Shown here in pieces: positions 3,941 through 20,504 of a stretch of DNA of 26,455 nt. Made by a program: the position numbers and the translations under genes. Below the pieces are notes generated by a model. That model did not search any database. It saw only the letters and a program-made list of their open reading frames with translations, and was not told the origin of the DNA. The stretch's first letter is position 1; each line of letters starts with the position of its first letter. This DNA comes from a virus. The stretch lies in UHGV virus genome UHGV-0075053. The stretch is one strand, 5' to 3'.

Positions 3941-4159
3941 TTACTCCAGAGGCCGCTTTTTAGCGAAGAGTTCAATATCAGATGTCAGAGAAACCTGTGT
4001 ATTTGCCAGGTCTAACAACAAAGAAATAAGAATTTCCTCTCTGCTATCTGATTTATCGGTGCTAAGGCTGTTCATCCACATATTGACGACTTCCCTGATT
4101 TTTTTCGCAGAGTGCATGGCTTCAAATGCCAGGTCTTCAATATCATGTTTATTTCGCAT
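3941..4159 (-). CDS. hypothetical small protein (start uncertain, 72-94 aa)
   Basis: ORF in the same operon; internal Met at 4159 gives minimal overlap with the upstream gene. Confidence 0.4.
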   Translation of the reverse strand: MRNKHDIEDLAFEAMHSAKKIREVVNMWMNSLSTDKSDSREEILISLLLDLANTQVSLTSDIELFAKKRPLE

Positions 4160-4361
4160 AATCGCCCCCGCGTAACTGGTCTGCACTAACACCCGATTTA
4201 GTGAGCATTTCAGAAAATCCCGCAAGAGTGCTGATAAATTCGTTTTCCATTAAACGGCACTGGCATTTAACCCGGCCTTTTTCCAGATACACCAGTACGC
4301 ACCCCGTATAATCTGACGGCACATTCAGCACTACAGATAAGTGCGCTTCATTATTATTCAT
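4149..4361 (-). CDS. hypothetical small protein (70 aa)
   Basis: ORF in the minus-strand operon; start overlaps the stop of the upstream gene. Confidence 0.4.
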   Translation of the reverse strand: MNNNEAHLSVVLNVPSDYTGCVLVYLEKGRVKCQCRLMENEFISTLAGFSEMLTKSGVSADQLRGGDYAK

Positions 4362-4590
4362 GGCTCACCACCTCCATATCAGCCATGATAATTTTGCTGG
4401 CCTCATTCAGTGCCATATCAGCACTAAGTTGCATTACAGCCAGTGAATGAGGAACGAAAGCCCCGGCATATTCTGTTTCGCTGGTGGCGTGCTTATGCGC
4501 CTTGTCTGCGATAACAGAAATATCAATCAGCGCGTGCATCAGCGTTTTGATGGCTTCGGCGGCTGCGTCCGGACGGGTGTTATTGCACAT
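4354..4590 (-). CDS. hypothetical small protein (78 aa)
   Basis: ORF in the operon; its ATG at 4588-4590 overlaps the stop of the upstream 68-aa gene. Confidence 0.45.
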   Translation of the reverse strand: MCNNTRPDAAAEAIKTLMHALIDISVIADKAHKHATSETEYAGAFVPHSLAVMQLSADMALNEASKIIMADMEVVSHE

Positions 4591-4786
4591 GGAGCACCCC
4601 CTGACGAATACGGGCGGCGAATACCATCACGCAGCCAGCCGGGGATTGCTGGCGTGCTTCCTGTTCGCTGGTGGCCACGATGTGAATCACGCGCGGTTGT
4701 GCGGTGCTCAGGGCGATAAAACGCCAGATGTATTTATTCAGGTTGTGCGAGTCCCGCCCTTGCGGGTGTGTGGTATGATTTCTCAT
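4580..4786 (-). CDS. hypothetical small protein (68 aa), first gene of the leftward satellite operon
   Basis: ATG at 4786 preceded by GAGGT RBS; located just downstream of the palindromic operator region; the longer 301-aa ORF-track version is judged an artefact. Confidence 0.5.
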   Translation of the reverse strand: MRNHTTHPQGRDSHNLNKYIWRFIALSTAQPRVIHIVATSEQEARQQSPAGCVMVFAARIRQGVLHVQ

Positions 4787-4863
4787 AGCTACCTCGATAC
4801 TCTTGCTATCGTTGGTGGTTAGACGCCCTGCATGTGTTGCGAGCACTGCGGGGCGTTGCTTAA

Positions 4864-4964
4864 TTTGAGTGACAAAACTCAAACTGTGCGCACAGATTAA
4901 AATCATGTGTGCGCACATGTCAATACTTAACATCTCATTTTTTTTGCTGTATTGTGTGCGCCCA
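4864..4964. promoter_or_regulatory. divergent promoter/operator region with TGTGCGCACA palindromes
   Basis: 7-bp inverted repeat TTTGAGT-N6-ACTCAAA (4864-4883); 12-bp perfect palindrome CTGTGCGCACAG (4884-4895); second TGTGCGCACA core (4908-4917); degenerate copy TGTGTGCGCCCA (4953-4964); between divergent genes at 4786 and 4992. Confidence 0.6.
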
Positions 4965-4991
4965 TAAAGTCCATTTAAGTGAGGTGCATCA

Positions 4992-5189
4992 ATGTCTAGC
5001 GGTAACACAAACAACAAATCAGCAAAGAAAAATATTCGATTCCCACATGAGCTTATAGATGGGATTGATGCCAGCGTTGAACAAGAAAAATTAACTAATC
5101 CTAGTGCTAATTTTTCCGCATGGGTCTTAGATGCCTGTGGACGCAAATTAAAATATGAACAGCGCCGGAAGGCCAAAGAATCAGAATAA
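4992..5189 (+). CDS. ribbon-helix-helix (Arc/CopG-like) putative transcriptional regulator
   Basis: 65 aa; KNIRFPHELIDGIDASV...ANFSAWVLDAC fits a beta-strand plus two-helix RHH pattern; GTGAGGTG RBS 6 nt before ATG; directly downstream of the palindromic operators. Confidence 0.55.
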   Translation: MSSGNTNNKSAKKNIRFPHELIDGIDASVEQEKLTNPSANFSAWVLDACGRKLKYEQRRKAKESE

Positions 5190-5231
5190 TCACTATCAGC
5201 GCCGTGGTGTGAGTAACTACGGCGCATTGCT

Positions 5232-5420
5232 ATGCAGGACAACACAATGACCGATAAAGAATTGACCAAAACATTATCACCGACACGGAAAAGACGGCGC
5301 AGAAAGATAGAGCATGAATCAGAAAGATTCGCACCTTGTTCGTTTGCTCTTGAGAAATTCCTTAAAGAGCGCAGGAAAAAGCTCTCGTTGCAAACCTTGG
5401 AACGAACCAAATCTGACTGA
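5232..5420 (+). CDS. hypothetical small basic protein (start 5232 or 5247)
   Basis: ORF downstream of the RHH gene on the same strand; Arg/Lys-rich; no recognisable motif. Confidence 0.35.
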   Translation: MQDNTMTDKELTKTLSPTRKRRRRKIEHESERFAPCSFALEKFLKERRKKLSLQTLERTKSD

Positions 5421-5611
5421 TCACATTGCCCACCAGCCGCAAATGTGGCATTGTTGGTGATGCTTTTGTTTTCCCTTGTTCCCACTGGCTACCCTTTTGC
5501 GGTCGCCTTTGTTTTGCCTGTTATCCGGCAATAGTGGCGCTTCGTCACCTGTCTGATATAATTCCACTGCTTATATTCATTTTTTGCGCAGTAGGTTAAT
5601 TGTTCGCAAGG

Positions 5612-5642
5612 GCGCTCCGGCAACGGGGCGCTTTTTGTTTTT
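5612..5642 (+). terminator. rho-independent terminator
   Basis: Stem GCGCTCC/GGGGCGC with 6-nt loop followed by TTTTTGTTTTT. Confidence 0.55.
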
Positions 5643-5800
5643 ACCCACCAGCACAATAAAAATCTTCATTTTCCATTTTTGTAAAATTTCATGCTTTCCG
5701 GACGACTGGTCATATGTCATTTTTTAGCAGAAGATTTTGCCTTGCTGGTGGGTAGCTTCCCGGTCAACACGATGTACCGTATAATCAACACCGCGTGTGG

Positions 5801-6382
5801 TTACTGAATACGCTCACCAAAGTAAAACTCAGGCTGGTATTCACGTATCAGCCTTTTTTCTTCTTCCTCCAGCTCACGCTTTTTGCGCTTACATGCCTGT
5901 AGCTCCCTCCCCTTCTCGCTGGCACTTATCTGATATTGCTCTTTGCGGCGGGAAAAATCCTGTAATGCGCCCCACGGGATACCATAAGCCCCCGTTTTTC
6001 TGATACCCGGTATCACATTTCTGAATACCCAGTTACTGAAACGATGGGCGAACGTGCCAGGAGTAGCAGCTTTGCGACTTCTGGCAATCAGCTTGTAAAA
6101 GCCAGATTCAGAAACGACGCTATGATTTGGATTTCCGCGAATACCGTAAGTTAAAGTTACGGTATTACTTTCATCATCATCCAGAGCTTGCAACGCCATG
6201 CGTGAATTGGATAATTCAAGCGCCGCACAAACATCCTTTGCAACAAACCACGGATCGCCGTTCAGATACACCACACGAACATCCACGCCATCAAAACGTA
6301 GAACGACCTGATCACGAATATCGCAGAATTTTTTCACTGGACGTGCATTCCCCTTGCCCATCATGGCAATATTTTTATTCAT
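5801..6382 (-). CDS. Bro-N domain protein (phage antirepressor-like)
   Basis: N-terminal VRVVYLNGDPWFVAKDVCAALEL motif typical of the Bro-N family; ATG at 6382 with GAGGTAG RBS (ORF-track start at 6385 is GTG). Confidence 0.65.
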   Translation of the reverse strand: MNKNIAMMGKGNARPVKKFCDIRDQVVLRFDGVDVRVVYLNGDPWFVAKDVCAALELSNSRMALQALDDDESNTVTLTYGIRGNPNHSVVSESGFYKLIARSRKAATPGTFAHRFSNWVFRNVIPGIRKTGAYGIPWGALQDFSRRKEQYQISASEKGRELQACKRKKRELEEEEKRLIREYQPEFYFGERIQ

Positions 6383-6401
6383 CACTTTCTACCTCACATA
6401 C

Positions 6402-6429
6402 AAAAAACCCCGCATTGCGTGGTGCGGGG
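6402..6429 (-). terminator. rho-independent terminator (minus strand)
   Basis: Stem CCCCGCA/TGCGGGG with 8-nt loop; T-run on the minus strand (A-run 6402-6407 on plus). Confidence 0.55.
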
Positions 6430-6439
6430 TTGTCGGTAA

Positions 6440-6718
6440 TTACTTATTGGCGTTTTTGTATGGGCTGTTTACTTCCTTTACTCCTGGCGGATGCATAACC
6501 CACCAGAGCACATCAGAGAGCAACCAGGAAACAGACACTTTCCCTAAATGAGCACGAGCAGGAAATGCTCCCTCCTGTTCAAGTACCCAACGTCTGCTTC
6601 TTGAAAGCCCGGTACGATTGGCACACTCATGTTCGCGTATACGGCGATCATACGGTTCGCCATGCTCTTTCAGAATCTGAATGCGTTCTTCGGGTGTAGG
6701 ATAAATAAATTTTTGCAT
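6440..6718 (-). CDS. AlpA-family DNA-binding protein (second copy)
   Basis: ECANRTGLSRSRRWVLEQEGAFPARAHLGKVSVSWLLSDVLWWV resembles the AlpA/Phage_AlpA HTH pattern; start taken at ATG 6718 because the ORF-track start 6748 overlaps the upstream terminator. Confidence 0.55.
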   Translation of the reverse strand: MQKFIYPTPEERIQILKEHGEPYDRRIREHECANRTGLSRSRRWVLEQEGAFPARAHLGKVSVSWLLSDVLWWVMHPPGVKEVNSPYKNANK

Positions 6719-6730
6719 AAAAATATCACC

Positions 6731-6758
6731 TATAAAAAAACCCGCCAAAAGACGGGTT
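6731..6758 (-). terminator. rho-independent terminator (minus strand)
   Basis: Stem AACCCG/CGGGTT with 8-nt loop; T-run on the minus strand. Confidence 0.5.
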
Positions 6759-6781
6759 GATTATATCTCATTTAATTTAGC

Positions 6782-7015
6782 TCAGGGTTTCCATTCACCC
6801 TTTACCCATTCCAGCACCTCAGATAAGCGCCAGACTTTTGTTTGTGGGCCAATACATATTTTTCGTGGAAATTTTCCTTCCTTTTCAAGTAACGATCTGT
6901 GTCTCCTGCCAAGAGCGGTTAACCATGCACATTCATCTTCCTTAATCATCCTGTCGATTGTTTTATCATTTTCAAGTTCTTCACGCGTAACTATTTGAAT
7001 CATTACCGTCACCAC
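6782..7015 (-). CDS. AlpA-family regulator adjacent to the integrase (start uncertain: 7015, 7003 or 6949)
   Basis: ECAWLTALGRRHRSLLEKEGKFPRKICIGPQTKVWRLSEVLEWV matches the AlpA pattern; position immediately downstream of int as in P4-like islands. Confidence 0.6.
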   Translation of the reverse strand: MVTVMIQIVTREELENDKTIDRMIKEDECAWLTALGRRHRSLLEKEGKFPRKICIGPQTKVWRLSEVLEWVKGEWKP

Positions 7016-8204
7016 TAATTAGCTTATTCAGATAGTCATACCACCAATTCATAGCTTCTTTTTTTCTGTCCATATACTGGCTTCTGTTATAAACCCCGGC
7101 AACACCGCCTAATGTGTGCCCAAGCAACTGTTCAACCACATTATGTTCAAAACCATGATCACTTAGCTTTGTGGCAAACACTCTTCGCATATCATGCGCC
7201 GTCCATTTCTCCGAGTGTTTCATCCTTTTCCATGTCTTACCGATAGTTACGCTTGCCGTACACTGACGCATATCAAACCCAATCACATTTTCTTTGTTAC
7301 CTGTTATTTTTTTTAACGTAACTAACCAGTTAAACATGCCATCAGGAATCGGTCTGATTATTTCCCTGCCATTTTTGCTATGATCAGCGGGAACGCGCCA
7401 TAATTTCTTATCAAAATCCCACTCTCCCCAGGAGGACAGTAATACTTCTGACAGTCGACAACCAAAAACTACCAGGAAACGTAAAATAATTCGGTTTTCA
7501 TATGATAATTCGTGATTGTCATAATCAGTATTAATACTTCGCCATAAATCTCTGATTTCATCATCTGTTAAAACCCTGCTTCTTCGCGCAGACTTTTTTC
7601 CCACATCACAGACCTCAAGATCATCAATTTCATGACTAATCGCGTATTTTCTTACCCGACAAAATTTAAGCGCCTGTTTTGATATACGCAACAAAGCTCC
7701 GGCCTGTACAGGTGCTACTTTTTTTATTTTGTCAAAACACTTGATCCACATAGATATAGAGCAATCACTAAGTGGTACATGACCAATCACCGGATAAATA
7801 TGTTTACCAAAGCACTGCCTGATATGTTCTGCTCCCCTACGCTTATCCATTGCATAATTATCAAGCCAGTATTCAAGTGCCTCACGAACGGTAACAGGTT
7901 GCAAGGTGGCTTCCCGTTCAATTTTTATCTGAATCCGTGGATCTCTGCCCTCCGCAAGCCAGGTTCGACACTGATCGCGCATCTCTCTCGCTGATTTGAG
8001 ACTCAGATCAGGATATTTCCCAAGTGTCAGCCAGATGGGCGCGGTTCCCCTTCCCGCCAGTCTGTAAAAGAAAACAAAACTAACACATCCGTATTTACTG
8101 ACCCGTACCGAAAGCCCGTTACCATCAGCGATGGTTTCCTGCCTCTCACTCCTGCGCCCAAGCAGGGAACGAAGTTTTTTATCGCTCAGTTTGTTTAGCG
8201 CCAT
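6981..8204 (-). CDS. int: tyrosine integrase, P4-like
   Basis: N-terminal arm-binding pattern (LSDKKLRSL...GNGLSVRVSKYG...FVFFYR), C-terminal catalytic region with HxxR-like LLGH and conserved Tyr context; start set to ATG 8204 (MALNKLSDKK). Confidence 0.85.
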   Translation of the reverse strand: MALNKLSDKKLRSLLGRRSERQETIADGNGLSVRVSKYGCVSFVFFYRLAGRGTAPIWLTLGKYPDLSLKSAREMRDQCRTWLAEGRDPRIQIKIEREATLQPVTVREALEYWLDNYAMDKRRGAEHIRQCFGKHIYPVIGHVPLSDCSISMWIKCFDKIKKVAPVQAGALLRISKQALKFCRVRKYAISHEIDDLEVCDVGKKSARRSRVLTDDEIRDLWRSINTDYDNHELSYENRIILRFLVVFGCRLSEVLLSSWGEWDFDKKLWRVPADHSKNGREIIRPIPDGMFNWLVTLKKITGNKENVIGFDMRQCTASVTIGKTWKRMKHSEKWTAHDMRRVFATKLSDHGFEHNVVEQLLGHTLGGVAGVYNRSQYMDRKKEAMNWWYDYLNKLISGDGNDSNSYA

Positions 8205-8209
8205 GTGAT

Positions 8210-9403
8210 TTATAACCCGTTTTTGCAATACACAGTGCAATACACAAATGATGAAAACAGCCAGAACCTTCCAGAAAAAACAAAAACGACGAACAAGAAA
8301 AAATCTTTTTCTTTCATTTGGTTACTAAAAAAATCAGGACAGGTCGCACTGTTGTTACGGCGTGATGTTACTTTCTTGGTAAAAAAATTCACCCGCGCAG
8401 AGACCTGCTCCTTCGCTTTTTTCGCCAGACGACGCAGATCATCCCAGCGTTTACAGATGCCCAGGCCAGGATTCGCTTTCTGCCAGACCGTTTCATCAAA
8501 CGGATCATCTCCCTCATCAAGCGTGTAAATGATCGCAAAGTAAGAGTCGTCTTTTACAGCGCCCTCCACGTCGCTGTTATAGCCTCGCAATACCTTGATG
8601 GCGTAATCACGCTGCTCGTAACAAATCCCTTCCTTGTTAAAGCCAGCCGTGGTGATACCAAATAACAGGGACTGCAGACGGGCACCGGTTGCCGTTTCCA
8701 GAACGTCCCACACGTCGCGGGTTTTATGTGCATGCAGCTCATCAATAATGGCGCAGTGGATGTTCAGACCGTCCAGGTTGTTTGCATCCGAGGAAAGCGG
8801 TTCAAATTTTGATGCGCTCTGCTCCTGGTAAATCGCCAGCTTGTTGAAATCAAACAACCGCCCGAGTGTCGACCGGGCTTTTCTGACCATATTTTTGGCG
8901 TCTTCAAACACGATTCTGGCCTGGTCAAGCGTGGTTGCGGCTGAATACACCTCAGCTCCGCCTTCACTATCTGCCCCCGTCATATACAGACCGATACCCG
9001 ATGACAGGGTTGATTTTGCGTTTTTACGGGCAACTTCGTTGTATGCTGTCCGGAACCGGCGCACCATCACCGGGCGTCCACTGCCATCGCTGCGCATGAC
9101 AACTTCCCCGGTTTCTTCATTCACCAGCGGAATGACAAAACCAAAAATATTAATGAGGATAAACACATGCCAGTCCATCAACTCAATGGGCTGACCTGCC
9201 AGCGCCCCTTTCACATGGGGTACAAATTTGTAGAAATTAAGGATGTGCTGTGCACGAGGTTCACTGAAATAAATCCCCCGCTCTTCGCCGTACTTCAGAT
9301 CATCAAGAAAACGCTGGCAGGCCAGACGGACAAATTCGCCAGCAACAATTTCTCCTGCAACAACACGTTCGGCGTAGCGGATCCCGTCAGCCACTTTTGC
9401 CAT
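8210..9403 (-). pseudogene. terminase large subunit, N-terminal ATPase portion only (C-terminally truncated)
   Basis: N-terminal ~340 aa look terminase-like; the last ~55 aa (about 8210-8400) are low-complexity read-through; full-length TerL would be far longer; ends next to the integrase gene. Confidence 0.7.
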
Positions 9404-16177: not shown

Positions 16178-17305
16178 TCATGCTTTCCACTTCAGAACAC
16201 CCGAATTTCTCGCGTGCATTAAAAAACGAATCAGCAACAACAGCTGGCTGCCGTGTTTTTCTTCAAAATCTTTTACCCCGGCGTGCAGTTCGTTATGACA
16301 TTTACGGCACAGCGGAATAACAAACAAATCATCAGCCTTTGTTCCCATACCTCCCAGGCCATGACCAATGATGTGATGCGGATCATCTGCCTGATTACCG
16401 CACGTCATGCATTTCTGCGTTTTTACCCAGCGCGTGTATACAGGCATCTCTTCCCGTTGTGGTTTCTGGCGCTGGAGATACTGAACCGGAGACTCCGGAT
16501 CAACGGCAATGCTGACCACCGTCTTTTCCTGTGGCGGGTTTTGCTGGTGGGCATGAGGCAACGGCGCAAGATTTTTTGTGCGCTGCTTCAGTATGCTGGT
16601 GGCGGTCTGCTCTCCCGGTACGATATCGCTTTCGCGGTACAAGGAGCGGATTTTTTCCGCACGTAACCCCAGAGAACGACGTAATACTGCCTCCGGAAGC
16701 GCGTCCGCCACCTGATTGCAGACCGCCCACCAGGATAATTCAGCCAGCGACAATTCCCGCTCCTGCGTGCCATTCATTGCATGGCGTATGACGTCAATCA
16801 TCCATGCTGACAGGTTTTGATGAGCAAGCTGCCCGAGTGATTCGGATGTCTGGTCACGCAACTGGTTGTCGCAGTGCCAGCACAACACCATCGCGCCGGT
16901 ACCGTAACGATGTATGACGATTTCACTGTGATGATAGTCACCATGAGGCCACTGGCAGGATTTGACATGACGCAACAGCCAGTCAGACAGTGCCCCAGCG
17001 CCGCCAGCAGCACGAATCACCCGCTCATCGCTGAAAAATGGCAGTAATGATTTATCCTCCGCCAGCGGCTGGCGAACGGCAGGGACGACTCCGGACGGCA
17101 GACCGCGCATGCTTTTCGGTTCAGGCTCCACCAGCACTCGAGGGTTATGAAATACTTGCATGGATTCACGGCCCGGCCTAAGGACCACCAGCCCAAGTTC
17201 CGGTACCAGAACAGGTCGAAGTAATATCCGCACGTTACCTCCAGATCCGTTGCTGGTATGTGCGGGATGGGCGCGGTGGGCGTTCGGAATAAGGGAGCCT
17301 GACAT
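16178..17305 (-). CDS. DUF968-family protein (YdfU-like) with C-terminal HNH-like zinc motif; true start possibly ATG 17161
   Basis: C-terminus CMTCGNQADDPHHIIGHGLGGMGTKADDLFVIPLCRKCHNELH; position between rusA and hok region as in Qin. Confidence 0.65.
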   Translation of the reverse strand: MSGSLIPNAHRAHPAHTSNGSGGNVRILLRPVLVPELGLVVLRPGRESMQVFHNPRVLVEPEPKSMRGLPSGVVPAVRQPLAEDKSLLPFFSDERVIRAAGGAGALSDWLLRHVKSCQWPHGDYHHSEIVIHRYGTGAMVLCWHCDNQLRDQTSESLGQLAHQNLSAWMIDVIRHAMNGTQERELSLAELSWWAVCNQVADALPEAVLRRSLGLRAEKIRSLYRESDIVPGEQTATSILKQRTKNLAPLPHAHQQNPPQEKTVVSIAVDPESPVQYLQRQKPQREEMPVYTRWVKTQKCMTCGNQADDPHHIIGHGLGGMGTKADDLFVIPLCRKCHNELHAGVKDFEEKHGSQLLLLIRFLMHARNSGVLKWKA

Positions 17306-18202: not shown

Positions 18203-18345
18203 CTCCCTGCCCCATCAATAAAAGTTCGGTTCTCTAATAACTAGAGTTAATCAACGGAAAAAACGCCGAAGCGGGTTAAGTGCGGGTGCGTTGAGGATGC
18301 CTGACACATCAGAGGTGGCGAGGGATTTCTCCCCCGCCAGGTCTC

Positions 18346-18501
18346 TTACTCCTCAGGTTCGTAAGCTGTGAAGACAGCGACCTCCGTCTGGCCGGTTCGG
18401 ATTCGTACCTCGCAGAGGTCTTTCCTCGTTACCAGTGCCGTCACTATGACGGTTAAACAGATGACGATCAGGGCGATTAACATCGCCTTTTGCTGCTTCA
18501 T
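18346..18501 (-). CDS. hokD: Hok/Gef-family small membrane toxin (HokD/RelF-like)
   Basis: MKQQKAMLIALIVICLTVIVTALVTRKDLCEVRIRTGQTEVAVFTAYEPEE matches E. coli HokD from memory; start set to ATG 18501. Confidence 0.9.
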   Translation of the reverse strand: MKQQKAMLIALIVICLTVIVTALVTRKDLCEVRIRTGQTEVAVFTAYEPEE

Positions 18502-19125
18502 AGCCTGCTTCTCCTTGCCTTTCGGCACGTAAGAGGCTAACCTAGATTTGCCGTTCATAGATTGAGCCTCAGATTAATGTTAAGCGTCTTGCAGGACGCG
18601 TAATGTTAACTGGGGCTTTTCTCTATCTGCCTTTGGTGTTCATGCCTGAGACAGATAGCCTCAAGCACCCGCAGCCATTCTACTTAACTCCCGTTACCTC
18701 GCCAATATAAAATCAATCAGAAAAGCGATCCATAAGAACAACAGCAAGACAATAAATTGCCATTACAGCTGCAATAGCCAGCGCACATTTGAGAACCAGC
18801 ACGACAACCTCCTGTATTGGACGTACACCAGTTCTGATAAATATGAGGCTGTCTCATCATTGATGAGATACAACTATTGGGTATAGTTTCTGTGATTTTG
18901 TTCTGTAGAAATGGAACACAACAACCAGTCACCACCAGCACTTCTTTAAATACGCCAAGTCCGACGCAAGCTAACCTTCTAGTCCGCTTTGAGCGAAAAG
19001 CAGACTGTCACGCGTTGAAGTTAATTGTATTACTTAGATAAACACTATCATTTTCCTGACGTTAAGTTGTATCTTTGATAGGATTAAAAAACGTATAGAT
19101 AGCTTATGCTACTGAGGGAATAAAA

Positions 19126-19935
19126 ATGACGAAAATTAGTGAACGATGGAAGCACAATGGCATTACTGAAGGTTATTGCAATATTTGTGGGAAATATGGC
19201 TTGCTCACAAAAGATCATGTTCCTCCAAAGTGCGCCATAACCTTAGGCCCTGTTTTGCAGAAAACAGTTAGCGAATTTTTTGGTATTCAGGAACCAGTTA
19301 AACCATTAAATGCTAAAAATGGCTCTTATTTCAGAACCATTTGCAGCCACTGTAACAATAAGGTATTAGGTGGGCTCGATGTTGCAATTGAAAATGTAAC
19401 AAAGTCCTTTAAAGAACAGTTAAGTCGATATATGAATGGTATGAATGTATATCCATTCATTAGAATACCTTTTGATAGCATATCTTTCACTAAGGCTATG
19501 ATTGGGCACGTGCTATCAGCAACTTCAGTTGAAGATTGTAAAAAAGAACCCGTAGATAGCCCCTTCTATACACCTTTAAAGGATTATGTTTTGGGTAAAA
19601 ATTCAAGTTTTGAGGAAACTCATGATATTTACTACTGGTTTTACCCACACAGAATGCACATATCCGCTCAAAGTGTAGCATTTATGAACGAAGGACATGT
19701 GGCATTTATTTGTGCTTTACATTTTTTTCCTATCGGTTTTATTATCACAATGAAAAATGAAGGAACATACCCTGCCCACTCTACAAAATTAGAACTTGAG
19801 GATAAATTCCTTACATTTAATATGACCTCTATAAATTATGAGTATACGACATTTCCATTTGTAAATCTTAAGGGAAACCAAATGTATGCGATAAGCAACG
19901 GTCATACTTGTGTGAGTTATCCAATAATTAAGTGA
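19126..19935 (+). CDS. hypothetical protein with N-terminal HNH/His-Me-finger-like motif and ~190-aa C-terminal domain of unknown function
   Basis: CNICGKYGLLTKDHVPPK...CSHCNN resembles the CxxC...DHxxP...CxxCN HNH pattern; GAGGGA RBS; AT-rich coding region; lone gene on the strand opposite its neighbours. Confidence 0.6.
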   Translation: MTKISERWKHNGITEGYCNICGKYGLLTKDHVPPKCAITLGPVLQKTVSEFFGIQEPVKPLNAKNGSYFRTICSHCNNKVLGGLDVAIENVTKSFKEQLSRYMNGMNVYPFIRIPFDSISFTKAMIGHVLSATSVEDCKKEPVDSPFYTPLKDYVLGKNSSFEETHDIYYWFYPHRMHISAQSVAFMNEGHVAFICALHFFPIGFIITMKNEGTYPAHSTKLELEDKFLTFNMTSINYEYTTFPFVNLKGNQMYAISNGHTCVSYPIIK

Positions 19936-20081
19936 CGGCTAAATCATACAATCTACGCATGTTCACTTTCTACATATACCATCTATAATGTCCGCTGTTG
20001 GCACAAAGCGGACAACCACGCTAGCTCTACCCTGTGCCACAAAATGTCAATTTGCATCTGAACTAATGCACTTTAATCTCG

Positions 20082-20504
20082 TCACTTCAATAAATACCGA
20101 ACATCACCCTGATAAAACGACAATATGCGCTGCATAACTTCACTCTTCCGGCACTCGCGACAGATTATGTTCTGACGCCTGTCGTAGCGACGTATTTCTC
20201 CGTCAGGTAATGGCCAGATAAGGTCCGGATCAACCGCAGATGGTTTCTTCAGCTTTGCCCTTGAGAGCTTTTTACGGGCATTTTGCCAGTCCTTACGCGC
20301 CTGTTCAGACGGGAATAACCCGTAACCAGAGTTGTATACATCGCCGCTGGCAACCAGCTCTCTTGCGAGAACGCTCATCAGATATCTTGTCGCACCTGTC
20401 TTGACTTCCAGTTGCCGTAACGTCTCACGCCCACTCTGGCGTACGAGTTCAACAACCTGTCCTTTAATTTTTTCCCGCTCTTCTTGTGTAAAAACTTTTG
20501 CCAC
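20082..20504 (-). CDS. hypothetical protein (140 aa) downstream of the replication gene
   Basis: GTG start at 20504 with AGGAGG RBS 5 nt upstream; no Walker motif, so not a DnaC-type loader. Confidence 0.5.
   Translation of the reverse strand: MAKVFTQEEREKIKGQVVELVRQSGRETLRQLEVKTGATRYLMSVLARELVASGDVYNSGYGLFPSEQARKDWQNARKKLSRAKLKKPSAVDPDLIWPLPDGEIRRYDRRQNIICRECRKSEVMQRILSFYQGDVRYLLK

What the first reader, a model, noticed from the sequence alone, without database searches (positions are those of the whole stretch)
18502..20081. AT-rich single-gene island encoding an HNH-motif fusion protein beside an orphan hokD
A 269-aa protein with an N-terminal CxxC...DHVPP...CxxCN motif (HNH/His-Me finger-like) and an unrecognised C-terminal domain sits alone on the plus strand in conspicuously AT-rich DNA, with a strong RBS and a hairpin after the stop. 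It occupies the position where relBE lies next to hokD in K-12 Qin. A stand-alone nuclease-like gene in a prophage accessory slot is a typical defence or exclusion candidate.
Basis: partly seen in the sequence, partly recalled or inferred. Interest (0 to 1): 0.7.

Follow-up and report, generated by a model that had tools for sequence, protein, structure and literature searches.

The report
Stand-alone HNH nuclease cargo gene
A real, AT-rich, single-gene cassette in an E. coli lambdoid prophage encodes an uncharacterised zinc-dependent HNH-type nuclease; it travels between phage cargo slots, plasmids and defence islands and is probably an immunity or exclusion nuclease, though a close relative failed a phage-defence test.

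Summary
The ORF is real: 19126-19935 (+), 269 aa, 35% GC against about 50% in the flanks, dN/dS 0.05-0.17. Its N-terminus is a divergent His-Me (HNH) finger. C18/C21/C73/C76, H31 and N77 are invariant, and D30 nearly so, across 77 distant relatives. HNH_5 is the top Pfam family, and one relative passes Pfam's curated cut-off. The C-terminal two thirds match no Pfam family and no PDB or BFVD fold. The architecture is constant across about 1,800 50%-identity clusters from many phyla, so this is one family, not a fusion. No partner gene is conserved.

The roughly 1-kb cassette recurs in unrelated settings:
- the tail-gene cargo slot of P2-like prophages (94-99.9% nt identity);
- beside IS26 on conjugative multidrug-resistance plasmids;
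- relatives sit in defence islands and other mobile elements.

hok is not an orphan, because sok RNA is present.

Best reading: a single-gene defence or exclusion nuclease (confidence 0.45). Two E. coli paralogues (51-53% identical) were predicted to be defence genes by DefensePredictor. One of them, PDP1, gave no protection against 24 phages.

Verdict: an uncharacterised variant of a known kind, of moderate interest.

The parts
19126..19935 (+). ORF of 269 aa plus stop codon (identical to RefSeq WP_000161640.1, named 'hypothetical protein' or 'chaperonin'). Member of an uncharacterised family of about 270 aa.
   Evidence: dN/dS is 0.05-0.17 against orthologues.
19114..19119 (+). Shine-Dalgarno sequence GAGGGA, 6 nt upstream of the ATG.
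   Evidence: Read from the sequence. Conserved in all four cassette contexts aligned.
19171..19380 (+). Residues 16-85, the Zn-stabilised His-Me (HNH_5-like) finger. It comprises C18xxC21, a strand ending in D30-H31, an insertion of about 35 aa, a second strand, and a helix carrying C73xxC76-N77; D85 begins the next predicted helix (85-103).
   Evidence: Residue invariance. Pfam HNH_5. The only PDB sequence hit is the HNH endonuclease 4h9d, colinear but not significant. AF2 secondary structure.
19438..19932 (+). Residues about 105-269, a family-specific alpha/beta domain with invariant G127-H128, W171 and P202. It matches no Pfam family and no solved or viral predicted fold.
18982..19005 (.). 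Left flanking palindromic hairpin, GTCCGCTTTGAGCGAAAAGCAGAC.
   Evidence: It marks the left end of identity with the P2-like prophage of strain d1-58 and with the plasmid copies. It is also present in phage Tritos at the end of the hok module.
19990..20013 (.). Right flanking palindromic hairpin, GTCCGCTGTTGGCACAAAGCGGAC. It lies 55 nt after the HNH gene's stop and 68 nt after the stop of the convergent DUF977 gene.
   Evidence: The same hairpin lies 3' of DUF977 in 32 of 80 viral contigs read and 3' of the P2 tail-fibre-assembly gene in 19 of 80.
18982..20013 (+). The mobile cassette: hairpin, leader, gene, hairpin. The core 19040-20013 is shared at 94% with P2-like phage pro147 and strain E148. 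The full span is shared at about 99.9% with the P2-like prophage of strain d1-58.
18346..18558 (-). mok/hok reading frame (70-aa ORF). The hok CDS proper is 18346-18501.
   Evidence: Window 18258-18515 is 98% identical to K-12 hokD.
18496..18670 (-). sok antitoxin RNA (Rfam RF01794).
   Evidence: 110 bits against a gathering score of 59, E = 1.9e-25.
20082..20504 (-). DUF977 (LygF-like, also called 'Ren-like') gene. It forms the right border of the variable cargo slot.

Best explanation
The gene encodes a self-contained, zinc-stabilised His-Me (HNH) nuclease carried as a cargo cassette.

Shown here:
- It is an intact gene under purifying selection.
- Four invariant cysteines would hold a structural zinc. 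The D30-H31...N77 set matches the metal-ligand and general-base residues of HNH enzymes such as T4 endonuclease VII (D40/H41/N62) and Cas9 (D839/H840/N863); that equivalence is from established knowledge.
- A family-specific C-terminal domain is always attached.
- No partner gene is conserved.
- The cassette sits in cargo hot spots of temperate phages, on plasmids and in defence islands.

Inferred:
- The protein cuts DNA of an invading element (a competing phage, satellite or plasmid), benefiting the mobile element that carries it.
- There is no methylase, antitoxin or immunity partner. Self-sparing must therefore be intrinsic.
- The C-terminal domain, perhaps with the 35-aa insertion in the finger, would either restrict cutting to a feature that host DNA lacks (a modification or a DNA structure) or hold the nuclease off until an infection cue arrives.
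For: Gene and fold:
- HNH_5 hits 41 of 77 diverse relatives, and one relative passes the curated cut-off.
- C18, C21, H31, C73, C76, N77, D85 and H128 are invariant, and D30 is present in 74 of 77.
- The AF2 model is confident, with pLDDT 84 and pTM 0.86.
- dN/dS is 0.05-0.17.

Stand-alone unit:
- No neighbour is conserved across 80 species. The largest neighbour cluster occurs in 7 loci.

Cargo and defence context:
- The hok-DUF977 slot holds different genes in related lambdoid phages.
- The same cassette lies between the tail-sheath and tail-fibre genes of P2-like prophages. PMC13586616 describes this tail-gene region as a defence and accessory hot spot.
- It lies beside IS26 on conjugative multidrug-resistance plasmids. 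48 plasmid records encode the protein at 99% identity or more, nearly all of those listed at 100%, across E. coli, Klebsiella and Shigella.
- Relatives sit at the end of a Vibrio inovirus prophage beside a DUF2726 protein, in a Pseudomonas serine-recombinase island, and in a Plesiomonas array with AbiU2, Shedu and PLD genes.
- The 150 ORFs adjacent to relatives include integrases, resolvases and transposases, and also Mrr_cat, ResIII, AbiTii, nSTAND3, PD-T4-2, HerA and pAgo-TIR.

Independent prediction:
- E. coli paralogues that are 53% and 51% identical lie beside SLATT-SMODS genes. One lies directly upstream of the validated system DS-13.
- DefensePredictor scored them as novel defence genes, with log-odds 7.5 and 8.4 against a threshold of 4.

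Absence from isolated phages:
- Only 2 distinct phages among 50,697 records, both prophage-derived, carry the gene.
Against: - The only experimental test of the family was negative. Paralogue PDP1 (WP_001609855.1), under its native promoter on a low-copy plasmid in MG1655, gave no protection against 24 phages (PMC13092281 Table S6).
- Neither the window protein nor its relatives give a convincing PADLOC match. The few weak hits are Cas8c, PDC-M01B and PtuB, best E = 1.7e-4.
- The window protein itself reaches only 11.6 bits on HNH_5.
- No reader or sensor fold was recognised in the C-terminal domain.
- Nuclease activity is untested.
- The neighbourhood enrichment was not compared with a formal background.
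Confidence: 0.45

Rival explanations
1. It is a selfish, structure-specific nuclease that promotes its own cassette's spread. Like T4 endonuclease VII, the enzyme would cut cruciform or branched DNA at the palindromic hairpins that bound cargo slots. That would stimulate recombination and copy the cassette into new slots, as a homing-like drive.
For: - Weak Endonuclease_7 matches occur in several relatives. The best is 21.8 bits against a 23.6-bit cut-off, spanning profile positions 21-81.
- The cassette is flanked by two related 24-nt palindromes.
- The same palindrome bounds other cargo cassettes and is native to both the P2 and the lambdoid slot borders.
- A near-identical cassette occurs in unrelated backbones.
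Against: - The hairpin also flanks cassettes that lack this gene (DUF2254 plus BCCT, and a DJ-1-like gene).
- In most of the 80 viral contigs read the hairpin occurs without the gene; only 10 of 80 carry both.
- Distant relatives lie in chromosomal islands, and no shared border element was looked for there.
- Ordinary homologous recombination at the shared hairpin would explain the shuffling without a dedicated nuclease.
- The Endonuclease_7 match is below threshold.
Confidence: 0.12
2. It is a type IV (modification-dependent) restriction enzyme like McrA. The HNH domain cuts, and the C-terminal domain reads a DNA modification absent from the host. This is a specific sub-case of the defence reading.
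For: - It is a single HNH gene with no methylase or immunity partner.
- It is prophage-borne. McrA is likewise an HNH enzyme of the e14 prophage (established knowledge; McrA is listed in His-Me group 1 in PMC5714182).
- The identical protein persists across many strains and plasmids, which suggests low self-toxicity.
Against: - Paralogue PDP1 gave no protection against a panel the authors diverse E. coli phages. The panel's composition, including any phages with modified DNA, was not checked here.
Confidence: 0.15
3. It is not a nuclease. On this reading it is a zinc-binding structural or regulatory protein ('metal-binding protein' or 'chaperonin' in NCBI names) that has kept an HNH-like scaffold, or a moron with a host-physiology role.
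For: - The database names are 'chaperonin' and 'metal-binding protein'.
- The window protein is sub-threshold on every HNH profile.
- The canonical middle Asn of HNH is not at its usual spacing. N65 is present in only 39 of 77 relatives.
- The defence test of the paralogue was negative.
Against: - Invariance extends beyond the zinc ligands to H31, N77 and D85, with D30 near-invariant. These are exactly the catalytic and metal positions. A purely structural zinc site would not require them.
- The database names have no traceable experimental basis. No paper cites WP_000161640.
Confidence: 0.1

Closest known systems
Pfam HNH_5 (PF14279), His-Me finger superfamily groups 1 and 8 of Jablonska et al. 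2017 (PMC5714182)
   Same: - It has the CxxC ... DH ... CxxC-N zinc-stabilised beta-beta-alpha-metal motif.
- HNH_5 is the top Pfam family for the N-terminus throughout the family.
- The only PDB sequence hit, colinear but not significant, is the HNH endonuclease 4h9d.
   Different: - An insertion of about 35 aa, longer in some relatives, splits the two strands. Most members, including the window protein, therefore fall below the curated cut-off.
- The metal-site residue after the second CxxC is Asn rather than His.
- An obligatory C-terminal domain of about 165 aa with no known fold is attached.
PDP1 (WP_001609855.1) and WP_187183634.1, predicted novel defence genes of DefensePredictor (PMC13092281)
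   Same: - They belong to the same family, at 53% and 51% identity over the full length, with E = 9e-106 and 8e-107.
- All catalytic and zinc residues are kept.
- They are stand-alone genes in mobile and defence contexts.
   Different: - They are different alleles in a different location: chromosomal islands beside SLATT-SMODS and DS-13, rather than phage cargo slots.
- PDP1 was tested and scored as not defensive. The window allele has not been tested.
P2 cargo genes of the tail-gene slot, and the Z/fun gene of phage P2
   Same: - The cassette occupies the slot between the tail-sheath and tail-fibre(-assembly) genes in P2-like prophages.
- It is AT-rich and non-essential cargo.
- The slot is reported as a defence and accessory hot spot (PMC13586616).
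- From my own knowledge, not checked here, this is the Z/fun locus, whose product blocks T5.
   Different: - No sequence comparison with Fun was made.
- This cassette also occurs in lambdoid prophages and on plasmids.
McrA, an HNH type IV restriction enzyme of prophage e14
   Same: It is a prophage-borne, single-gene HNH nuclease without a methylase.
   Different: - McrA carries a known 5mC-binding domain. Here the non-catalytic domain has no recognisable fold.
- There is no detectable sequence similarity beyond the HNH motif.
Sirona and Nemetona, single-gene integron-cassette defence systems of V. cholerae that are distantly HNH-like (bioRxiv 10.1101/2024.07.02.601686)
   Same: - They are small single genes with a distant His-Me finger, validated against phages.
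- A V. cholerae homologue of this family lies on a 969-bp contig the size of a cassette.
   Different: - Their sequences could not be obtained, so relatedness is untested.
- They are described as resembling a type II restriction domain and lambda NinG, not HNH_5 or endonuclease VII.
- The family's V. cholerae members are rare, which argues against their being cassettes of strain N16961.

Membership tests
His-Me finger / HNH (Pfam HNH_5, PF14279) | Profile match at or above Pfam's curated cut-off (27.5 bits). | tested here: met
   - The window protein alone does not reach it: 11.6 bits, E = 0.29, first half of the profile only.
- A bona fide family member with a short insertion scores 31.9 bits, E = 1.3e-7, over profile positions 1-45.
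- HNH_5 is the top family in all 10 N-termini scanned. It hits 41 of 77 members.
- Membership therefore rests on transitive homology.
His-Me finger / HNH (Pfam HNH_5, PF14279) | Catalytic set: Asp-His at the end of strand 1 (metal ligand and general base) and Asn or His on the helix (metal ligand). | tested here: met
   D30 is present in 74 of 77 relatives, H31 in 77 of 77 and N77 in 77 of 77. D85 is also invariant.
His-Me finger / HNH (Pfam HNH_5, PF14279) | Two CxxC pairs forming the structural zinc site that brackets the finger. | tested here: met
   C18, C21, C73 and C76 are invariant in 77 of 77 relatives.
His-Me finger / HNH (Pfam HNH_5, PF14279) | Beta-beta-alpha topology, with the His on strand 1 and the metal ligand on the helix. 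| tested here: inconclusive
   - AF2 secondary structure gives strand 24-32 (ending D30-H31-V32), strand 67-73 and helix 74-81 (carrying C76-N77), which fits the order expected.
- Model coordinates could not be inspected.
His-Me finger / HNH (Pfam HNH_5, PF14279) | Metal-dependent nuclease activity. | not testable with these tools
   This needs biochemistry.
Anti-phage defence system | Expression reduces phage plating or plaque size. | not testable with these tools
   From the literature only: paralogue PDP1 (53% identical) was scored as not defensive against 24 phages in MG1655 (PMC13092281 Table S6). The window allele is untested.
Anti-phage defence system | Match to a model of a known or candidate defence protein (PADLOC-DB 2.0). 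| tested here: not met
   The window protein gives no hit at E <= 10. The 77 relatives give only weak, scattered hits.
Anti-phage defence system | Location in cargo hot spots of mobile elements or beside known defence genes. | tested here: met
   - P2 tail-gene hot spot.
- Variable hok-DUF977 slot in lambdoid phages.
- Neighbours include SLATT-SMODS, DS-13, AbiU2, Shedu, Mrr_cat, ResIII, AbiTii and nSTAND3.
- The assessment is qualitative, without a formal background.
Free-standing HNH homing endonuclease | Widespread in phage genomes, inserted next to a conserved target gene, and carrying DNA-binding modules such as NUMOD or IENR. | tested here: not met
   - It occurs in only 2 distinct phages among 50,697 records, both prophage-derived.
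- It sits in variable cargo slots, on plasmids and in chromosomal islands.
- No Pfam DNA-binding module was found.
Type IV restriction enzyme (McrA-like) | A nuclease domain plus a recognisable modified-base reader domain. | tested here: inconclusive
   The HNH part is met. The C-terminal domain has no fold or profile match of any kind, so a new kind of reader cannot be excluded.
T4 endonuclease VII family (PF02945) | Profile match above the cut-off (23.6 bits). | tested here: not met
   The best relative scores 21.8 bits, E = 1.8e-4, over profile positions 21-81 of 82. The window protein has no hit.
Type I toxin-antitoxin hok/sok (the neighbouring locus) | The hok toxin ORF together with the antisense sok RNA. 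| tested here: met
   The sok RNA scores 110 bits, E = 1.9e-25. The locus is therefore not an orphan.
Sirona / Nemetona integron-cassette systems | Sequence homology to the validated V. cholerae cassettes. | not tested
   The sequences were not retrievable. The supplement is truncated in storage.

The most novel reading that the evidence does not exclude
The family is a new single-protein immune nuclease. An HNH finger would be gated or targeted by a domain of previously unseen fold. The gene is shuttled as a hairpin-bounded cassette between the cargo hot spots of unrelated temperate phages (P2-like and lambdoid) and onto IS26 multidrug-resistance plasmids. Its target would be something ordinary lytic-phage panels miss, such as temperate phages, satellites or plasmids. 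The more radical variant is that the nuclease itself acts on the palindromic slot borders to drive cassette exchange.
Probability: 0.3. Interest if true: 0.7.

Novelty: new variant of a known kind. Interest (0 to 1): 0.5.

Why it matters
- The family is large and spans many phyla. It has about 1,800 clusters at 50% identity, yet no Pfam or NCBIfam model and misleading database names ('chaperonin', 'metal-binding protein').
- It would add a new non-catalytic domain to the repertoire of HNH effectors.
- The identical protein is spreading on conjugative multidrug-resistance plasmids of E. coli, Klebsiella and Shigella. Any exclusion or defence activity could therefore affect phage therapy and plasmid ecology.
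- The hairpin-bounded cassette offers a concrete, testable route by which cargo genes move between unrelated temperate phages.
- If the negative PDP1 result generalises, the family is a useful test case of a confident context-based and machine-learning defence call that is wrong, or that needs a different class of target.

Tried and rejected
- The afdb50 library was not available, so AlphaFold DB was not searched.
- PDB sequence and profile searches found only a spurious dethiobiotin synthetase hit and a non-significant hit to the HNH endonuclease 4h9d.
- No NCBIfam or PADLOC hit was found for the window protein. The only PHROG match is phrog_21495, of unknown function.
- A search for a conserved partner gene across 80 species found none.
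- A search for informative domain fusions in longer homologues found only low-complexity extensions, probably mis-called starts.
- I tried to test identity with Sirona and Nemetona and with Rousset's P2/P4 systems. The accession is absent and the supplements are truncated.
- No paper cites WP_000161640.
- Brenes & Laub 2025 is not held in the library.
- The search for related loci with the 77-sequence alignment failed because it is too diverse. It was rerun with the 34-sequence alignment.
- The homing-endonuclease reading was rejected on distribution.
- The 'terminator' reading of the 3' hairpin was weakened, because there is no T-run.
- No sigma-70-like promoter was found within the shared leader 19040-19125. 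The nearest plus-strand match is at 18860-18887, outside the cassette.
Full report
**1. What is in the sequence**

The window is a lambdoid (Qin/Rac-like) E. coli prophage. It is about 97% identical across this region to a prophage of strain O157:H16 Santai, and 98.8-98.9% identical over the 2.4-kb locus to the best-matching E. coli genomes.

Between the hok gene (18346-18558, minus strand) and a DUF977 gene (20082-20504, minus strand) lies a single plus-strand ORF, 19126-19935, of 269 aa.
- The Shine-Dalgarno sequence GAGGGA lies at 19114-19119.
- The ORF is 35.1% GC, against 49.9% and 51.1% in the flanks.
- An 8-9 bp stem-loop lies at 19990-20013. It has no T-run, and the simple terminator scan does not pick it up.
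- dN/dS against orthologues is 0.05-0.17, so the gene is under purifying selection.

Two descriptors in the finding are wrong.
- hok is not an orphan. Rfam finds a full-length sok RNA at 18496-18670 (minus strand), E = 1.9e-25.
- The protein is not a fusion in any evolutionary sense (section 2).

The relBE comparison holds only by position. K-12 Qin shares window 18258-18515 (hokD) and then diverges, with relE and relB abutting hokD there.

**2. The protein family**

A word-indexed search found 93 relatives, nearly all about 270 aa, named 'chaperonin', 'metal-binding protein' or 'hypothetical'. An exhaustive profile search found 1,812 cluster representatives at E <= 0.001, 823 at 1e-10 and 360 at 1e-30. 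Apart from truncated fragments, the 150 listed match over essentially their full length.

A pattern scan of one genome per species confirmed 140 relatives and kept the best 80 loci. These are mostly Gammaproteobacteria and Betaproteobacteria. Cyanobacteria, Nitrospirota, Planctomycetota, Bacillota, Bacteroidota, Actinomycetota and a CPR bacterium are also represented.

Across 77 members that are 18-45% identical to the window protein, the invariant residues are C18, C21, H31, P33, P34, C73, C76, N77, D85, G127, H128, W171 and P202. D30 is present in 74 of 77. The few longer members carry only low-complexity N-terminal extensions.

There is no Pfam, NCBIfam or PADLOC model for the family. The only profile match is phrog_21495, of unknown function.

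**3. Is the N-terminus an HNH finger? Yes, by transitive homology**

- The window protein alone scores 11.6 bits on HNH_5, against a 27.5-bit cut-off.
- HNH_5 is by far the most frequent Pfam hit among relatives, matching 23 of 34 and 41 of 77.
- I scanned ten N-termini separately. HNH_5 was the top family in every one. It matched the CxxC-DH half, the CxxCN half, or both.
- One member with a short insertion matched both halves at once: 31.9 bits, E = 1.3e-7, profile positions 1-45, above the curated cut-off.
- Endonuclease_7 reached 21.8 bits against a 23.6-bit cut-off in another member.
- The only PDB sequence hit of an N-terminal profile was the HNH endonuclease 4h9d. Both motif halves aligned in the correct order, but the hit is not significant (E = 5.6).
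- The AF2 model (pLDDT 84.4, pTM 0.86) places D30-H31 at the end of strand 24-32 and C76-N77 on helix 74-81, after strand 67-73. This is the strand-strand-helix order of the fold. It is interrupted by a poorly predicted insertion of about 35 aa.
- D-H...N is the catalytic and metal-binding set of enzymes such as T4 endonuclease VII and the Cas9 HNH domain (established knowledge).

**4. The rest of the protein**

Residues from about 105 to 269 are predicted with high confidence. Even so, they match nothing.
- Foldseek against PDB and BFVD gives nothing at E <= 0.001.
- No Pfam family matches this part in any of 77 relatives.
- AlphaFold DB could not be searched.

The high pTM and the invariant G127-H128 suggest that the two parts form one globule. 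The C-terminal part may contribute to the active site.

**5. A mobile single-gene cassette**

The gene occurs in 149 of 5,426 complete E. coli genomes, 136 of them at full length. Of these, 62 have it in this hok-DUF977 slot.

The same cassette also occurs in three other settings.
- In P2-like phage pro147 and strain E148 it lies between the tail-sheath and tail-fibre(-assembly) genes, at 94% nt identity. In strain d1-58 it lies in the same slot at 99.9%. This tail-gene region is a reported accessory and defence hot spot of P2 (PMC13586616).
- It lies next to IS26 on conjugative multidrug-resistance plasmids.
- In the plasmid collection, 48 records encode the protein at 99% identity or more, nearly all of those listed at 100%, across E. 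coli, Klebsiella and Shigella.

The plasmid copies carry the same DUF2254 and BCCT-transporter neighbours as the P2-like prophage of strain d1-58. They therefore look like a captured piece of that slot.

The hok-DUF977 slot holds different cargo in related lambdoid phages:
- an acetyltransferase plus a regulator in phage Evi;
- a methyltransferase and others in phage HannyBb;
- small ORFs in phage 813R8;
- relBE, ydfV and flxA in K-12 Qin.

More distant relatives occur in other mobile or variable settings:
- at the end of a Vibrio inovirus prophage, beside a DUF2726 protein;
- in a Pseudomonas serine-recombinase island;
- in a Plesiomonas array with AbiU2, Shedu and PLD genes;
- in a toxin-rich islet within the Motilimonas his operon;
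- beside the terminase gene of an Enterobacter prophage.

Across 80 species no neighbour is conserved. The largest neighbour cluster occurs in 7 loci. The 150 flanking ORFs include integrases, resolvases and transposases. They also include Mrr_cat, ResIII, AbiTii, nSTAND3, PD-T4-2, HerA and pAgo-associated TIR proteins.

Only 2 distinct phages among 50,697 phage records carry the gene, and both are prophage-derived. This argues against a homing endonuclease or a core phage function.

**6. What is already known about the family**

No paper cites WP_000161640. E. coli does have divergent paralogues of the window gene.
- WP_001609855.1 (267 aa) is 53% identical to the window protein, E = 9e-106. 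In strain 55989 it lies beside SLATT and SMODS genes and directly upstream of WP_000387046 plus WP_001022716.
- WP_187183634.1 ('chaperonin', 268 aa) is 51% identical. It lies beside SMODS-SLATT, a KAP NTPase and a recombinase.

In the DefensePredictor study (PMC13092281) both are 'predicted novel defense genes', with log-odds 7.5 and 8.4 against a threshold of 4. The adjacent gene pair is the study's validated system DS-13.

WP_001609855.1 was cloned as 'PDP1' with its native promoter on a low-copy plasmid in MG1655. It was challenged with 24 phages and is listed as defensive = FALSE. The authors note that systems which failed to validate may need other phages, another host or different gene boundaries.

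Two HNH-like single-gene integron-cassette systems, Sirona and Nemetona, have been validated in V. cholerae. Their sequences were not retrievable, so relatedness is untested.

**7. Interpretation**

Shown here:
- a real gene under purifying selection;
- an HNH finger with intact catalytic and zinc residues;
- an obligatory domain of unknown fold;
- no conserved partner gene;
- location in cargo hot spots, on plasmids and in defence islands.

Inferred:
- The protein is a nuclease used by its carrier element against competing DNA.
- With no methylase, antitoxin or immunity gene, self-sparing must be built in. It could come from target restriction (a modification or a DNA structure) or from trigger gating by the C-terminal domain.

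I put this reading at 0.45, because the only wet-lab test of a family member was negative.

The rivals are:
- a type IV restriction enzyme, as a specific sub-case of the defence reading (0.15);
- a selfish, endonuclease-VII-like nuclease acting on the palindromic slot borders (0.12);
- a non-catalytic zinc-binding protein (0.10), which the invariance of H31, N77 and D85 and the near-invariance of D30 disfavours.

**8. Side finding: the hairpin**

The cassette is flanked by two related 24-nt palindromes of the form GTCYGCT-N10-AGCRGAC, at 18982-19005 and 19990-20013.
- The P2-like prophage of strain d1-58 has three copies. They delimit the HNH gene and, separately, the DUF2254 plus BCCT pair.
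- In Erwinia aeris, two identical copies bracket a 247-aa ORF that I judged DJ-1/PfpI-like by eye.
- The palindrome occurs in more than 120 IMG/VR contigs.
- I read 80 of these contigs. It lies about 69 nt 3' of the lambdoid DUF977 gene in 32. It lies about 62 nt 3' of the P2 tail-fibre-assembly gene in 19. It lies about 55 nt 3' of this HNH gene in 10.
- In 19 of 20 contigs that have both P2 marker genes, the palindrome sits inside the cargo slot.

The palindrome is thus native to the borders of both hot spots. It could supply the short homology that lets cargo cassettes move between unrelated temperate phages.

**9. Verdict**

- The HNH call is supported.
- The defence reading is plausible but unproven, and one related allele tested negative.
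- This is an uncharacterised variant of a known kind, an HNH-effector cargo gene. Interest is moderate, at 0.5.

Noticed in passing
window 18982-19005 and 19990-20013; L099 4943, 5951, 9624; L015 9260, 10229; L102-L181: A 24-nt palindromic hairpin (GTCYGCT-N10-AGCRGAC) bounds cargo cassettes. It is native to the 3' ends of the lambdoid DUF977 gene and of the P2 tail-fibre-assembly gene, which are the borders of two unrelated cargo hot spots. It is a likely recombination point for cassette exchange.
   Followed up: partly
window 18713-18802 (-): An unannotated 29-codon hydrophobic ORF (MLVLKCALAIAAVMAIYCLAVVLMDRFSD) has a near-perfect Shine-Dalgarno sequence (AGGAGG). It lies on the hok strand, between the sok region and the left hairpin. 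It is conserved with one substitution (F27L) in strain Santai and in phages Evi and Tritos. It may be a small membrane peptide or toxin.
   Followed up: partly
window 18496-18670 (-): A full-length sok antisense RNA is present (Rfam RF01794, 110 bits). This prophage's hok locus is therefore complete, unlike K-12 hokD, which is fused behind relBE.
   Followed up: yes
L011 and L012 (plasmids), L098, L099: The trio of HNH gene, DUF2254 protein and BCCT transporter found in the cargo slot of a P2-like prophage recurs next to IS26 in the multidrug-resistance regions of conjugative plasmids. It also recurs in a chromosomal resistance island with mph(A). Part of a phage cargo slot seems to have been captured by IS26.
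   Followed up: partly
L100 (E. coli 55989) 4079-8876; L101 5560-7747: Both divergent E. coli paralogues of the gene lie within 1.5 kb of a SLATT plus SMODS nucleotidyltransferase pair, in different orientations. One lies directly upstream of the validated two-gene system DS-13.
   Followed up: partly
L013 (V. cholerae contig of 969 bp): A V. cholerae homologue fills a 969-bp contig that was seen in 12 samples. This is what a collapsed integron cassette would look like. No attC site was looked for.
   Followed up: no
window 16178-17305 (-): The neighbouring DUF968/YdfU-like ORF (375 aa) carries its own Cys/His motifs of the His-Me type (CxxC...HH...CxxCH). The prophage therefore encodes at least two unrelated His-Me finger proteins within 3 kb (DUF968 is His-Me group 7 in PMC5714182).
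   Followed up: no
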